Shown here in pieces: positions 10,680-57,888 of a stretch of 64,000 nucleotides of DNA. The DNA lies in contig OZ024750.1 in assembly GCA_964016885.1 (NCBI GenBank), forward strand, positions 26,536,001 to 26,600,000, written 5' to 3'. Position numbers and translations under genes: made by a program. The notes beneath the pieces are model-generated. The model was not told the DNA's origin. It worked only from the letters and a program-made list of their open reading frames with translations, and searched no databases. Numbering within the stretch: the stretch's first letter is position 1; the number at the start of each line of letters is the position of its first letter. This stretch comes from Eledone cirrhosa (taxonomy: Eukaryota).

Positions 10680-10814
10680 AATGCCCGGTAGGACGGTTTG
10701 GTTATCATTGTGATGGGGTATGCCATTGTAACGACAACATTAACTGCGACATGATTTCTGGAAAATGTCGAGATGGATGTGCTGCAGGTTATCTTGGATC
10801 CACTTGCCAAGAAG
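10680..10814 (+). CDS. EGF-like exon B, copy 1 (ECPVGRFGYHCDGVCHCNDNINCDMISGKCRDGCAAGYLGSTCQE)
   Basis: tttcag acceptor, GTATAT donor, 135 nt, phase 1-1, open, 8 Cys. Confidence 0.9.
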
Positions 10815-11449
10815 GTATATCATAAATTTGCTACGTATTTACTATAATTACTACACACACACACACACACACTCACACACACACACACACACACACACAC
10901 GCGCACACGCACACACACACACACACACACACACACACACACACATACACACACACACGCACACACTCACAGACTCACACACATTCACAAATATATATGT
11001 ATGTGTTTCCGTGTGTATGTGTGTGTGTGCATGTGTTTGTGTGTGTGGAAATATGATGTTTAATATAGAAATCGCTTCTACAGGTCTACTTTTGAATGAA
11101 ATAGTTCTACTAGTTCTAAATGTATATATATATATATATATATATATATATATAAATATATATAATATATTTATATATATATATAACATATATATGTGTG
11201 TGTTATATATATATATATATATATTTATATATTTATATATAACAAACACACACACACAGACACACACATATATATATATATATGTAGAGAGAGAGTGAGA
11301 GAGCAAGAATGAAGTGTTCATTCTACTGACACGTCTATAAAATTGGGGCTCGTTTGTATGATTGTAAACGAATCGAATGTTGTTATTAATATTCGAAAAA
11401 CTCAGATTACTTTTATATATATACATATATATATATATATATATATATA

Positions 11450-12340
11450 AGTATGTATACGTACATACATATATGTATACAGACGTACAGTAGTATGTAT
11501 ATATATACTACATGCACACACATATATATATATATGTACGTATGGGTTTACCGAACATTTACTATAATGCTCGGTTTGTTTCTAAACAAACAGCCCCAAT
11601 TATTAGCCGTACAGTGTTCGGCAACCATGGTTGCCATTTTGTTCAACACTGACAAAGGAACGATGAACTAGTTTCTAGCTTATTAGCTGTCATCAGCACT
11701 ATATACCTTCCTGTCAGTTGATTGAACGTTTGAAAGAATATACTTTCCTGATGCATATTATAGGCTGAGCAGCCTAATTTGCATATTGAGTGAGTACAGA
11801 TATATATATATGTGCATGTATGTATGCATATACATACTACTGTACGTCTGTATACATATATGTATGTACGTATACTTACTTATATTTAAGTATCAGCCGT
11901 ACAAAGAGTGAGAAATGAAATTTTTATTTTTTCCATTTATCGTTTTCGGTACGACCGGCCGACTAACTCAGTCGATATGCAAATAAGGGTGCTCAGTAGT
12001 TAATATGCATAAGGAAAATATATATTTTCAAACATTCAATCAACTGACAGGAAGCTATACGGTGCTGATGACAGCTAATAAGCTTGAAACTAGTTCATAG
12101 TTCCTTTGTCAGTGTTGAACAAAATGGCCACGATGGTTGCCGAACACTGTACGGCTAATAATTCGGGCTGTTTGTTTAGAAACAAACCGAGCATTATAGT
12201 AAATGTTCGGTAAACTCATACGTACATATATATATGTGTGCATATATGTATATACATAATACTGTACGTCTGTATACATATATGTATGTACGTATACATA
12301 CTTACATTTAAGTATCAGCCGTACTAAGAGTGAGAAATGA
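11450..12340. repeat. Foldback/MITE-like inverted repeat (paralog about 58460-59345)
   Basis: 11450-11790 is the approximate reverse complement of about 11975-12310. Confidence 0.75.
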
Positions 12341-13152
12341 AACAACATTTTTCGATGTATATATATTAAATGGAAAAATGAAATTTCATTTCTCACTCTT
12401 AGTACGGCTGATACTTAAATATAAGTATGTATACCTACATACATATATGTATACCGACACACACACACACACACACACACACACACACACACACACACAC
12501 ACACACACACACACACACACACATATATATATATATATATATATATATGTGTGTATGTATATAAATGTAATCTGAATTTTTCGAATATTAATAATAACAT
12601 TCGATTTGTTTGCAATTATGCAAACAAGCCTAAATTTTATTGCCATGTCAGTGGAATAAACACTTCATTCTTGCTCCTGTGATGGCATGCGAACAGAACT
12701 CCAGACACTAATGTTTCTGGGTATCACCCTTCATCCTTTATGTCCATGTTTGCGTATTTTTAGCTGTAATAATCTCCGGGTCTTCTTTCTTCTATTTCTT
12801 TTTTCCTTTTTTCCTTTCTCTTTCTCCTTTTTCATCTTTCTCTGCCTCTTTTTCTGTTTCTTTCTTCATCTTTCTTTCTTTTCTCTACCTTCACTATTTC
12901 TATCCCCCTCGTTTCTTTCTATCTGTATCTCTATTATTACTACTATTTTTATGTGATAGTTTGAACTCGTAAATTTGCCGGTTACGTATTTATTTGTATT
13001 TTCTTTCTCTCTTTCGTCTTTCCTCCTCCCCTCCTTTCCATCTGTACTCCTTCTTCTGTGTCTCTCTATATCTTTATTATTAATATTAATATTGATGTGG
13101 TAATTTAAAATAGTAAATTTACAGTTATGCATATTTCCTTTATTTTCTCTTG

Positions 13153-13257
13153 GTCTCTGACGAAATGATAGAGATAAATGTATTTTTAAATTGAGTGACA
13201 CTGCCTTCTGCGTTAAGCAATTTTTAGACAACTCTATCATAGAAACAATTGTTAGAC
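13153..13257 (+). ncRNA. Hammerhead ribozyme; paralog 60181-60285
   Basis: GTCT-CTGACGA-AATGATAGAG...CTCTATCATA-GAAA-CAATTG-TT-AGAC. Confidence 0.8.
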
Positions 13258-14143
13258 TGTAAATAAATTTCCTTCTTTGTACTGTCGACCATATTATTCA
13301 ATTTTTCAATTTTATTATTCAAAGATATATTTACACAGGAATATAAGTGAGGTCATAAACTCGTCATCCACGTAAACTTCTTGTTCAGTCTTTCAACGCC
13401 GTACGCTTAAACAATTGATGATAAGAAGTTTTCACAACCTCTAATCGGTCTACCTTTAATGATATCTTGTTATCATATATATATATATATATATATATAT
13501 ATATATATATATATATATATATATATATATATGTATATAGGATAACAGTTTTTCGAATATTAATAACATTCGATTCGCTTGCAATTATGCAAACAAGCCT
13601 AAATTTTATAGCCATGACAGTAGAATGAACACTTCATTCTTGCTCCTGTGTTGGCAGACACTAATGTTTCTGGGATCACCCTTCATCAGTACAGCCCACT
13701 GTTCTTCTGCAAGAACCTCAGAGCCAGTGAAAATATATGCTATTTTCAAAAATGCACTGTGACTCATTGGCGTGATTTGCATATCAGCAGACTAGCTGAT
13801 CAGTCAATCTGCATATTAGCCAGATTTGAATATCAGCAGACTGGCCAGTCAGTTTCCTGTATACGAGAGATATATGACCAACTTTGCCAAATTTAAATAA
13901 AAAAGACAATTTATATATACAAATATATACACAACAAAGCCTGCAGCTCCATTCTACTTCGCTGTCTCTTCTCCCTCTCTCTATGTCCCTCTTTCAATCT
14001 ACTCTCTTACCATCACTATCTCTTTCTCTCTATCTTTCACTCTCTCTTGTGTCGGTGGGTGTGTGCTGGGTGCAGGCGAGTGCCTGCATGTGTATGTGTT
14101 TGTAAATATGATGTTTAATATAGAAATCTTATATACATTTCAG

Positions 14144-14278
14144 AATGCCGAATAGGAGAGTTTGGTGTTAAATGTGAAAGGACATGCCATTGTATCAACA
14201 ACACAAACTGTGACCATCGAAATGGAAGATGTTCAGATGGATGTTCTGCAGGTCATACTGGTGACAATTGCCAAGAAG
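14144..14278 (+). CDS. EGF-like exon C, copy 1 (ECRIGEFGVKCERTCHCINNTNCDHRNGRCSDGCSAGHTGDNCQE)
   Basis: tttcag / GTATAT, 135 nt, phase 1-1, open, 8 Cys. Confidence 0.9.
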
Positions 14279-57000: not shown

Positions 57001-57274
57001 TAAGTAATGAGTACTTTGGTGCGTTATGGTCCATCTGGTTCCTTACCACATTTCCTTCGTTATATATATATATATATATATATATATATATAACGAAAAA
57101 GAGATGAAATCGAAAATGCAACTGGAGTCTTATTTTTTTTTAAAATATATATATTTATTTGGTTCCTTTACCGGTTTCGCAGTTCTTCTGCTTTTCAAAA
57201 GGTGAGTTGAGATGGAGGGTCTGTGGTTTTTCTCTCAGATGTGAGAAAAACCACAGACCCTCCATCTCAACTCA

Positions 57275-57312
57275 CCTTTTGAAAAGCAGAAGAACTGCGA
57301 AACCGGTAAAGG
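57275..57312 (+). ncRNA. Minimal hammerhead, U3-A8 variant; copies 57165-57202 (-), 55405-55442 (+), damaged at 5045 and 7640
   Basis: CCTT-TTGAAAA-GCAG AAGAA CTGC-GAAA-CCGG-TA-AAGG. Confidence 0.75.
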
Positions 57313-57550
57313 AACCAAATAAATATATATATTTAAAAAAAAAATAAGACTCCAGTTGCATTTTCGATTCCATCTCTTTTTCTTTATACTTTCACTCGTG
57401 TAGGACACCTCGGTTATTTTTCACTTTGTAAAAAAACCTCACTTTCTAATATATATATATATATATATATATATATACATATATATATATATATATATAT
57501 ATATATATATATATATATATATATATATATATATATATATATATATTTAT

Positions 57551-57609
57551 GAAGTTGTTCAGATGGATGTACTCCAGGTCATATTGGCAAGATCACAATT
57601 GCCAAGAAG
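57551..57609 (+). pseudogene. Decayed 3' half EGF exon (copy 2)
   Basis: Paralog of 10447-10505. Confidence 0.75.
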
Positions 57610-57753
57610 GTATATCATAAACTTGTTACATAATTACTATAATTCCTATATACACACACACATATATATATGTTTATGTGTGTGTTTGTGTGTGTGTATC
57701 GGCATGCGTTTGTAAATATGATGTTTAATATAGAAATCTTATATATATTTCAG

Positions 57754-57888
57754 AATGCCCGGTAGGATGGTTTGGTTTTAAATGTAAAGGGGTATGCCAT
57801 TGTAACTACGTCCTTAACTGCGACTTCCGTTCTGGAAGATGTTCAGATGGATGTACTGCAGGTTATCTTGGATACAATTGCCAAGAAG
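57754..57888 (+). CDS. EGF-like exon B, copy 2 (ECPVGWFGFKCKGVCHCNYVLNCDFRSGRCSDGCTAGYLGYNCQE)
   Basis: tttcag / GTATAT, 135 nt, open, 8 Cys. Confidence 0.9.

What the first reader, a model, noticed from the sequence alone, without database searches (positions are those of the whole stretch)
10680..57888. Hypervariable EGF exon B: 14 of 45 codons differ between paralogs, all non-synonymous
Seen in sequence: a hand alignment of 10680-10814 with 57754-57888 gives 20 nucleotide differences in 14 codons (R/W, Y/F, H/K, D/K, D/Y, N/V, I/L, M/F, I/R, K/R, R/S, A/T, S/Y, T/N). No codon differs silently, and all 8 Cys, all Gly and both splice sites are kept. Exon C differs by 2 nt and exon D by 1 nt, and flanking unique intron sequence is visibly much more similar than exon B. 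Across exons A-D only 1 of 27 differences is a silent codon change. Inference: strong diversifying selection on one domain. If exon A is skipped, this is the membrane-distal N-terminal domain, as expected for the ligand-binding site of an immune, allorecognition or gamete-recognition receptor.
Basis: partly seen in the sequence, partly recalled or inferred. Interest (0 to 1): 0.92.

Follow-up and report, generated by a model that had tools for sequence, protein, structure and literature searches.

The report
Rapidly diversifying EGF membrane receptor array
The two exons belong to a family of at least 40 neighbouring genes for EGF-repeat surface proteins in an octopus-like genome. Both the outer domains and the membrane-spanning segment change amino acids much faster than nearby introns change bases, as expected in an arms race with parasites or viruses.

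Summary
Observation confirmed: exon B differs at 20 of 135 nt and 14 codons, with no silent change, against 3.7% in nearby introns.

It is not one special domain. The window holds two members of a tandem family (20 genes on C10, at least 23 leader exons on C2). Each C10 gene has a signal peptide, 8-Cys EGF exons, one transmembrane (TM) exon and a K/D-rich tail. The EGF module is shared with molluscan MEGF/galactose-binding/PTP receptors, but those two domains were not found.

Across 114 EGF exons dN/dS is 1.8-2.0 overall and about 3.5 at a third of sites; conversion-only simulations did not reach this.

One B copy is partly a conversion mosaic, so the pair alone is weak evidence. In the window's genes exon A has lost its donor and exon E lacks one. 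No RNA evidence.

Closest known: the snail LG5R/SudRes1 clusters linked to schistosome resistance. Best reading: parasite-facing receptors or decoys; function untested.

The parts
364..498 (+). Copy 1 exon A: divergent first EGF exon; donor GT changed to TT; read-through would end V-I-S-stop
   Evidence: 3 of 10 intact A exons recovered (the window clade) have TT
10454..10541 (+). Copy 1: 3' remnant of the X-type partner exon that lies about 310 nt upstream of Y-type exons in other genes; 5' half replaced by a TA repeat, frameshifted
10680..10814 (+). Copy 1 exon B (Y-type 8-Cys EGF exon); 5 of its 14 differing codons are private among 149 other exons
14144..14278 (+). Copy 1 exon C (EGF)
15461..15592 (+). 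Copy 1 exon D (EGF, 132 nt)
15786..15920 (+). Copy 1 exon E: last EGF exon, GG instead of a GT donor, in-frame TGA; skipped in the membrane form or terminal in a secreted form
20821..20911 (+).
   Evidence: start corrected by one base
26659..26893 (+). Copy 1 cytoplasmic tail exon (phase 2): Tyr and basic residues, then K/D/G/S four-residue repeats, then stop
35457..35520 (+). Copy 2 leader exon (21-residue signal-peptide-like, phase 1). The copy 1 leader lies upstream of the window at C10:26526676
47637..47771 (+). Copy 2 exon A, donor GT changed to TT
57558..57645 (+). Copy 2 remnant of the X-type partner exon
57754..57888 (+). Copy 2 exon B; codons 18-20 shared with exons of other genes, codons 24, 25 and 40 with C10:25953843
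61202..61336 (+). Copy 2 exon C
62473..62604 (+). Copy 2 exon D
62790..62924 (+). Copy 2 exon E (GG donor, TGA). The copy 2 TM exon (about C10:26601620) and tail exon (about C10:26612265) lie beyond the window

Best explanation
A lineage-specific family of single-pass surface proteins (signal peptide, a variable stalk of 8-Cys EGF repeats, one TM helix, a short or K/D-repeat tail with no catalytic domain), derived from the EGF and TM modules of a molluscan MEGF/galactose-binding/PTP receptor. Shown: exon structure from genomic DNA, copy number, and the dN/dS excess in EGF and TM exons. Inferred: unequal crossover changes gene and exon number; conversion shuffles short tracts between exons and keeps introns alike; splice-site loss switches exons off, so the window's membrane form would be leader-B-C-D-TM-tail with B outermost; selection fixes new residues at the non-Cys positions and in the TM helix. 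Most likely driver (inferred): parasites or viruses that bind the ectodomain and, through their own membrane proteins, the TM helix. The proteins would act as recognition co-receptors or decoys for the signalling PTP receptors rather than signal by themselves.
For: Architecture: 20 leaders and 20 TM exons alternate on C10. The best EGF matches are octopus MEGF/F5-8C/PTP receptors, 29-31 of 44 residues against at most 24 for the rest of 170 proteins. The genome's own PTP receptor has EGF exons with the same boundaries and about 80% DNA identity into the intron. Selection: M0 omega 1.81 (F1x4) and 1.99 (F3x4); M2a against M1a 2dlnL 169 and 163; omega2 3.5-3.6 on 33-35% of sites. Seven conversion-only simulations gave 2dlnL 0.1-92 and M0 omega 0.45-1.08. 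TM omega 2.9 (bootstrap 1.9-5.1, 20 genes) and 2.1 on C2 (9 exons). Cys kept at 1069 of 1072 positions in 134 exons with no stops. Snail clusters of the same architecture are linked to schistosome resistance (PMC13712769 section 20; PMC12297450 passages).
Against: No RNA, population or functional data. The window's genes carry damage (A donor lost, X partner degraded, stop in E), so they might be decaying or end at A. Gamete, neural or allorecognition roles give the same statistics. The link to immunity rests on analogy with snails, where the association peak favours galactose-binding members that these genes lack. The site-model code is my own, with branch lengths fixed up to a scale and capped optimisation. 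Pairwise omega for Y-type exons alone is borderline (bootstrap P(omega<=1)=0.048), and A exons give 1.03.
Confidence: 0.55

Rival explanations
1. A cell-identity or self/non-self code. Cells express different paralogs and bind like with like through the EGF tips, while diverged TM helices set which paralogs dimerise in the same membrane (neural wiring or allorecognition).
For: Near-identical leaders and promoters (leader codons 1-16 pN 0.008) with diverse mature proteins; TM diversification without charged residues (none of the TM exons scanned had D, E, K or R in the last 23 residues); several leaders ahead of one TM exon on C2.
Against: Many identical EGF exons between genes (nearest-neighbour distance 0 in several genes) and no conserved signalling tail. 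Homophilic codes (recalled) usually keep TM and tail constant.
Confidence: 0.18
2. Gamete- or reproductive-tract surface proteins diversified by sexual selection or conflict.
For: Extreme dN/dS and repeat homogenisation are typical of gamete recognition proteins (recalled); EGF repeats are common in them.
Against: At least 44 leader exons in one genome fit a repertoire better than a lock-and-key pair; the nearest characterised relatives are parasite-linked (PMC13712769, PMC12297450).
Confidence: 0.1
3. Little or no adaptive change in the window pair. Introns were recently homogenised, exon B and the TM exon were imported from older paralogs or are relaxed, and the two genes are decaying or make only a secreted leader-plus-A peptide.
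For: B2 tracts shared with other genes; counted as 8 tracts the pair gives P=0.12; lost donor of A, broken X partner, stop in E; blocks of different age along the gene.
Against: No donor exists for B1 (nearest exon 19 nt away, 5 private codons) or for TM1 (4 of 7 differing codons in the last 24 are private among 27 other TM exons). Family synonymous divergence (0.09-0.12) equals flank divergence (0.09-0.11) while pN is higher. Relaxation cannot give omega above 1. Frames, Cys and hydrophobicity are kept.
Confidence: 0.12
4. The two window copies are alleles of one gene placed in tandem by the assembler, so the differences are a balanced polymorphism, not paralog divergence.
For: C-to-tail introns differ by only 0.4-2%.
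Against: A third copy shares B with copy 2 but has another TM exon; no N in the window or in L031-L041; the copies carry different large insertions.
Confidence: 0.05

Closest known systems
[quoted passage not shown]
   Same: Clustered genes with signal peptide, Tie2/MEGF10/SREC-like EGF repeats, one TM helix and a small cytosolic part without domains; related to galactose-binding PTP receptors of the same genome; gene fragments and presence/absence variation.
   Different: Different mollusc lineage; orthology not tested. Here the phosphatase relatives lie elsewhere in the genome, no galactose-binding member was found in the DNA examined, and dN/dS above 1 is measured in EGF and TM exons. That paper's main text has 0 occurrences of 'positive selection' and 0 of 'cephalopod'; its supplements were not read.
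Biomphalaria sudanica SudRes1 MEGF/GBD receptor-like PTPs (PMC12297450, passages read) and the octopus proteins P0001, P0007, P0015
   Same: Same EGF module and EGF-then-TM order; many non-synonymous differences and EGF loss among copies reported in the snail.
   Different: Array genes lack the galactose-binding and PTP domains and have their own leader and tail.
Human glycophorin A/B/E cluster (PMC12199742, passages read); works-like comparison only
   Same: Tandem single-pass surface proteins, exons silenced by splice-site point mutations, hybrid genes by conversion, parasite link.
   Different: No sequence relationship; three genes with mucin-type ectodomains (recalled) against more than 40 with EGF repeats.
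Primate tetherin/BST2 (PMC2633611, abstract read); works-like comparison for the TM exon
   Same: Positive selection in a TM helix, attributed to viral antagonists that bind within the membrane.
   Different: Single gene with another topology; here the TM diverges among paralogs and no antagonist is known.
Hessian fly SSSGP tandem families (PMC2955719, abstract read); pattern comparison
   Same: Conserved promoter, signal peptide and introns with highly diverged mature coding region, explained by positive selection plus homogenisation.
   Different: Secreted parasite effectors, not membrane proteins.

Membership tests
Molluscan SCARF-like single-pass EGF receptors (LG5R 1A/1E type) | N-terminal signal peptide | tested here: met
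   21-residue hydrophobic leader exon, open in 20 of 20 C10 genes; judged by eye, no SignalP run
Molluscan SCARF-like single-pass EGF receptors (LG5R 1A/1E type) | MEGF10/SREC/Tie2-type 8-Cys EGF repeats | tested here: met
   Profile of 14 exons matches SCARF1 8hna_B at E=2e-5, one of 2 PDB sequences matched; Pfam matches weak and below cut-off in 3 of 4 exons, none for B2; InterPro not available
Molluscan SCARF-like single-pass EGF receptors (LG5R 1A/1E type) | One TM helix | tested here: met
   One phase 1-to-2 hydrophobic exon per C10 gene, 20 hits for 20 leaders; splicing to the EGF exons inferred, not shown
Molluscan SCARF-like single-pass EGF receptors (LG5R 1A/1E type) | Small cytosolic part without known domain | tested here: met
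   Tail frames of 8 residues in 9 of 10 C2 loci (1 gave no open frame) and 13-182 residues in 16 C10 reads covering 15 loci
Molluscan SCARF-like single-pass EGF receptors (LG5R 1A/1E type) | Common descent with the snail cluster | not tested
   No snail protein was compared; independent origin from the PTP receptors is equally possible
Molluscan SCARF-like single-pass EGF receptors (LG5R 1A/1E type) | Association with parasite resistance or immune-cell expression | not testable with these tools
   No expression or phenotype data
MEGF/GBD receptor-like PTP (SudRes1 type) | Galactose-binding (F5/8 type C) domain | tested here: not met
   No tblastn hit of the non-EGF parts of 11 relatives in 820,713 fetched bases (overlaps included), which hold five leader-to-leader intervals complete or nearly so; genome hits lie at C2:230-262 Mb and C17 (strict first look)
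MEGF/GBD receptor-like PTP (SudRes1 type) | Cytoplasmic PTP domains | tested here: not met
   0 of 72 PF00102 matches (113 of 113 candidates scored) fall in C10:25.8-27.4 Mb or C2:310-315.4 Mb
MEGF10/Draper/CED-1 engulfment receptors | NPxY and YxxL signalling motifs in the tail (recalled) | tested here: not met
   Absent by inspection from all tail frames printed
MEGF10/Draper/CED-1 engulfment receptors | N-terminal EMI domain (recalled) | not tested
   No EMI profile was run over the leader-to-A intron

The most novel reading that the evidence does not exclude
The arrays are a combinatorial cephalopod receptor system. Near-identical promoter-plus-leader cassettes (up to five in a row before one TM exon on C2) and switchable EGF exons are spliced into membrane and secreted forms. 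The TM helix is itself a second recognition site, selected against membrane-embedded antagonists or for partner choice among paralogs.
Probability: 0.17. Interest if true: 0.87.

Novelty: new variant of a known kind. Interest (0 to 1): 0.62.

Why it matters
Clusters of this architecture are candidate parasite-recognition genes in snails, but four searches of the held library turned up no description in a cephalopod. If the organism is one (inferred from protein similarity), this is a concrete candidate for a diversified cephalopod recognition repertoire, with 13 named EGF positions to test. A TM helix evolving at dN/dS near 3 across 20 paralogs, with a divergence peak confined to the exon, is unusual. 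It predicts a binding partner inside the membrane, which domain swaps can test.

Tried and rejected
Expression: no RNA holder was listed, and no reads were laid on the locus, so splicing, expression and allelic variation stay open.

Protein search with exon B2 alone found nothing; the 14-exon profile found 23 proteins among 682 candidates.

The AlphaFold2 model of one exon was poor (mean pLDDT 61.7, pTM 0.31) and Foldseek gave 0 matches, so whether the variable residues share a surface was not tested.

My first reading, that all genes are secreted EGF-only proteins, was dropped when the TM exon appeared.

Exon E as a secreted terminal exon is not established: only 5 of 13 have a canonical poly(A) signal in the up to 1.5 kb examined (one had only 62 nt), 2 lack the read-through stop, and 9 have lost the seventh Cys.

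The conserved block at window 18743-19200 could be an exon (consensus open in phase 1), but both window copies carry a +1 base, its donor phase does not fit the TM exon, and part of it recurs in other introns. Left unassigned.

The G-I-S-stop after most donors is no more conserved than neighbouring intron bases, so it is not evidence of function.

No homologue of the leader, TM or tail exons among 170 fetched proteins beyond generic hydrophobic matches.

The tail comparison was off by one base and was redone.

Earlier findings of the scan: none.
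Full report
OBSERVATION. The two exons (window 10680-10814 and 57754-57888) are 135 nt, phase 1-1, with AG/GT ends. Exons A, C, D and E differ by 4 (1 silent), 2, 1 and 1 nt. Intron blocks around B differ at 75 of 2038 unmasked sites (3.7%); the block from 12568 onward differs by only 0.4-2.0%. So B lies in an older block than C-E, but is still about four times as diverged as its own flanks (p=6e-7). 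The pair alone is fragile: P(no silent change) rises to 0.026 per codon and 0.12 for 8 hand-chosen tracts.

WHAT IT IS. The window is C10:26536001-26600000 of a 3.0 Gb genome. It holds most of one gene and the first part of the next in a tandem array. A signal-peptide-like leader exon (35457-35520) has 20 copies on C10 (25.85-27.30 Mb), at least 23 on C2 (310.3-315.1 Mb) and one on C1149; each search scored 40 of 54 candidates. I fetched about 0.93 Mb, which is part of the arrays only, and recovered 180 EGF exon candidates on C10 and 35 on C2. A C10 gene is: leader, a divergent A exon, 2-29 recovered X/Y-type EGF exons usually in pairs about 310 nt apart, often a last E-type exon, then a 91-nt TM exon (phase 1 to 2; window 20821-20911) and a phase-2 tail exon (26659-26893). 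TM searches give 20 hits on C10, one per leader, 14 on C2 and 1 on C1149 (35 of 35 candidates scored). Tails are K/D/G/S repeats of varying length on C10 and an 8-residue peptide in 9 of 10 C2 loci read; I saw no signalling motif.

ORIGIN. A 14-exon profile finds octopus and other molluscan MEGF/F5-8C/PTP receptors first (domains). Their best repeat matches the family consensus at 29-31 of 44 residues, against at most 24 for the other proteins of the 170 held. The genome's own such receptors lie at C2:230-262 Mb and are about 45-74% identical to Octopus vulgaris proteins, exon by exon, which suggests a cephalopod other than those in the database (inference). Their EGF exons share boundaries and about 80% DNA identity into the intron with exon B. 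No galactose-binding or PTP sequence was found in the fetched array DNA, and 0 of 72 PTP matches fall in either array. The family is therefore best read as a phosphatase-less offshoot of that receptor; the direction is inferred, not tested with a rooted tree.

SELECTION ACROSS THE FAMILY. Of 180 C10 candidates, 23 were dropped (remnants, frameshifts, codon indels; listed), leaving 134 X/Y, 13 E and 10 A exons. Among the 134 there is no stop and Cys is kept at 1069 of 1072 positions; the filter required the first Cys (and three more in 132-nt exons), and the 3 losses are exons with an insertion. On an earlier set (152 kept of 176), pairwise dN/dS was 1.62 for 61 X exons, 1.45 for 47 Y, 1.53 together (codon bootstrap P(omega<=1) 0.007, 0.048, 0.014), 1.93 for 10 E and 1.03 for 5 A; pS (0.09-0.12) matched flank divergence (0.09-0.11). 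My own codon models on 114 unique X/Y exons gave M0 omega 1.81 and 1.99, and M2a over M1a 2dlnL 169 and 163, with omega 3.5-3.6 on 33-35% of sites. Thirteen of 44 sites have posterior at least 0.95, and 8 of the 14 B differences fall on them (partly circular, since both exons are in the data). Eight null simulations, seven with added conversion tracts, gave 2dlnL -0.5 to 92 and M0 omega 0.45-1.08: conversion inflates the test but did not reach the real values in these few runs. Among 71 nearest-neighbour pairs within 10 nt the ratio is 1.59.

IS B SPECIAL? B of copy 1 is jointly the most isolated of 134 exons (19 nt to the nearest exon of another gene; median 7), and 5 of its 14 differing codons occur in none of 149 other exons. 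B of copy 2 is a patchwork: codons 18-20 match exons at C10:26141566 and partly 26020760, codons 24, 25 and 40 match 25953843, and it differs from the next gene's B by 1 nt. The first two recovered exons of a gene are slightly more distinct than later ones (7.6 against 6.5 nt, within-gene permutation P=0.0002), but coverage is incomplete and one gene contributes five identical copies, so this is modest support for an N-terminal bias.

THE MISSED EXON. Between the two window genes the TM exon differs at 15 of 91 nt (Nd 12.5, Sd 1.5, plus one change in the junction codon) while its introns differ at 26 of 2544 sites (p=1e-12). In 100-nt bins the count is 15 on the exon and 0-3 elsewhere. Copy 2 and the next gene differ at 12 of the last 74 nt, none silent. 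Across 20 C10 genes omega is 2.90 (bootstrap 1.87-5.11) and across 9 C2 exons 2.14 (1.35-3.84). The segments stay hydrophobic and uncharged. The leader (3 nt) and the first 133 nt of the tail (3 nt) also differ only non-synonymously; leader variation sits in codons 17-21 (pN 0.18 against 0.008).

SPLICING. In the window's clade of three genes exon A has TT in place of GT, the X partner of B is destroyed, and E has a TGA. E-type exons have GG or CG instead of GT in all 13 (defined that way). A membrane protein therefore needs A and E skipped, giving leader-B-C-D-TM-tail with B outermost. Read-through at A would give a secreted one-EGF peptide instead. Two C2 leader-to-leader intervals read in full contain one EGF exon, transposon DNA and no match to the family TM exon, and on C2 up to five leaders precede one TM exon. 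These are either secreted genes or alternative first exons. No RNA evidence was obtained.

MECHANISM AND ODDS. Shown: architecture in DNA, repeated exon gain and loss, mosaic exons, amino-acid excess with the Cys scaffold kept. Inferred: conversion homogenises introns while selection holds exons apart, and the proteins sit on the cell surface without their own signalling domain. I put diversifying selection at about 0.88. For the role: parasite- or virus-facing receptor or decoy 0.55, cell-identity code 0.18, gamete role 0.10, relaxed or decaying pair 0.12, allelic copies misassembled in tandem 0.05.

COMPARISON WITH THE LITERATURE. The B. glabrata LG5R cluster has genes with signal peptide, Tie2/MEGF10/SREC-like repeats, one TM helix and a small cytosolic part, and is associated with schistosome resistance (PMC13712769; section 20 and passages read; supplements not read and may hold variant counts by exon). 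B. sudanica SudRes1 holds MEGF/GBD PTP receptors with many non-synonymous differences (PMC12297450; passages). The array meets the architectural features of the first, fails the GBD and PTP features of the second, and orthology to either was not tested. Works-like parallels: glycophorin pseudoexons and hybrids (PMC12199742, passages), positive selection in the tetherin TM helix (PMC2633611, abstract), conserved introns with diverged coding regions in gall midge genes (PMC2955719, abstract). Searches for a cephalopod description gave 0, 13 listed of 16, 3 and 0 papers (listings only), none on this family by title or abstract start. The library lacks most subscription journals.

VERDICT. Real, and larger than the finding: a new variant of the molluscan clustered EGF single-pass receptors, with measured selection on EGF repeats and, unexpectedly, on the TM helix. 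Function and expression are untested. Interest 0.62.

Noticed in passing
G000:C2:310.7-310.95 Mb (L051-L056): Five leader exons lie in a row before one TM exon; pairs of leaders per TM exon recur at 310.45-310.48, 310.64-310.66 and 312.38-312.41 Mb. Either secreted one-EGF genes or alternative first exons.
   Followed up: partly
EGF exon donors across both arrays: Reading through the donor gives a three-residue extension and a stop in most exons (108 of 152 read G-I-S-stop); not more conserved than neighbouring intron bases.
   Followed up: partly
window 38202-41313 and 41685-44802: Large inverted duplication with 99.5-100% identical arms (40002-40940 against 42997-42059: 100%) inside the leader-to-A intron of copy 2.
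   Followed up: no
window 4168-6722 and 6815-9646: Recent direct duplication (98-99%) within the A-B intron of copy 1.
   Followed up: no
window 9830-9930: Inverted second copy of the broken X-exon remnant, next to a repeated element at 10054-10411.
   Followed up: no
window 26659-26893 and L141-L150: Tail exon made of 12-nt repeats; copy number varies, and in some genes an indel switches the frame from K-D-S-G repeats to E-K-T-K repeats.
   Followed up: partly
G000:C2:314.53-314.62 Mb: About 12 near-identical A-type exon copies spaced about 7 kb apart.
   Followed up: no
G000:C2:314974298-314989321: Eight tandem copies of the region upstream of the tail exon.
   Followed up: no
G000:C10:26022532, 26066449, 26201650: Three Y-type exons carry an in-frame insertion before the last Cys.
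   Followed up: no
G000:C10:26012871, 26129684, 26197369, 25849095: A exons broken by a shared deletion (three genes) or truncated (one gene); exon A is lost repeatedly.
   Followed up: partly
window 18743-19200: Block conserved in all seven genes aligned, with an acceptor-like start; consensus open in phase 1 but +1 in both window copies; role unknown.
   Followed up: partly
window 22603-24637, 28189-28839, 33504-34037: Broken reading frames resembling reverse-transcriptase and GIY-YIG retroelements (labels recalled, not searched).
   Followed up: no
G000:C14:9.15-9.16 Mb and C22:17.64 Mb: Intronless PTP domains in open frames of 927-1254 codons, three in tandem on C14.
   Followed up: no
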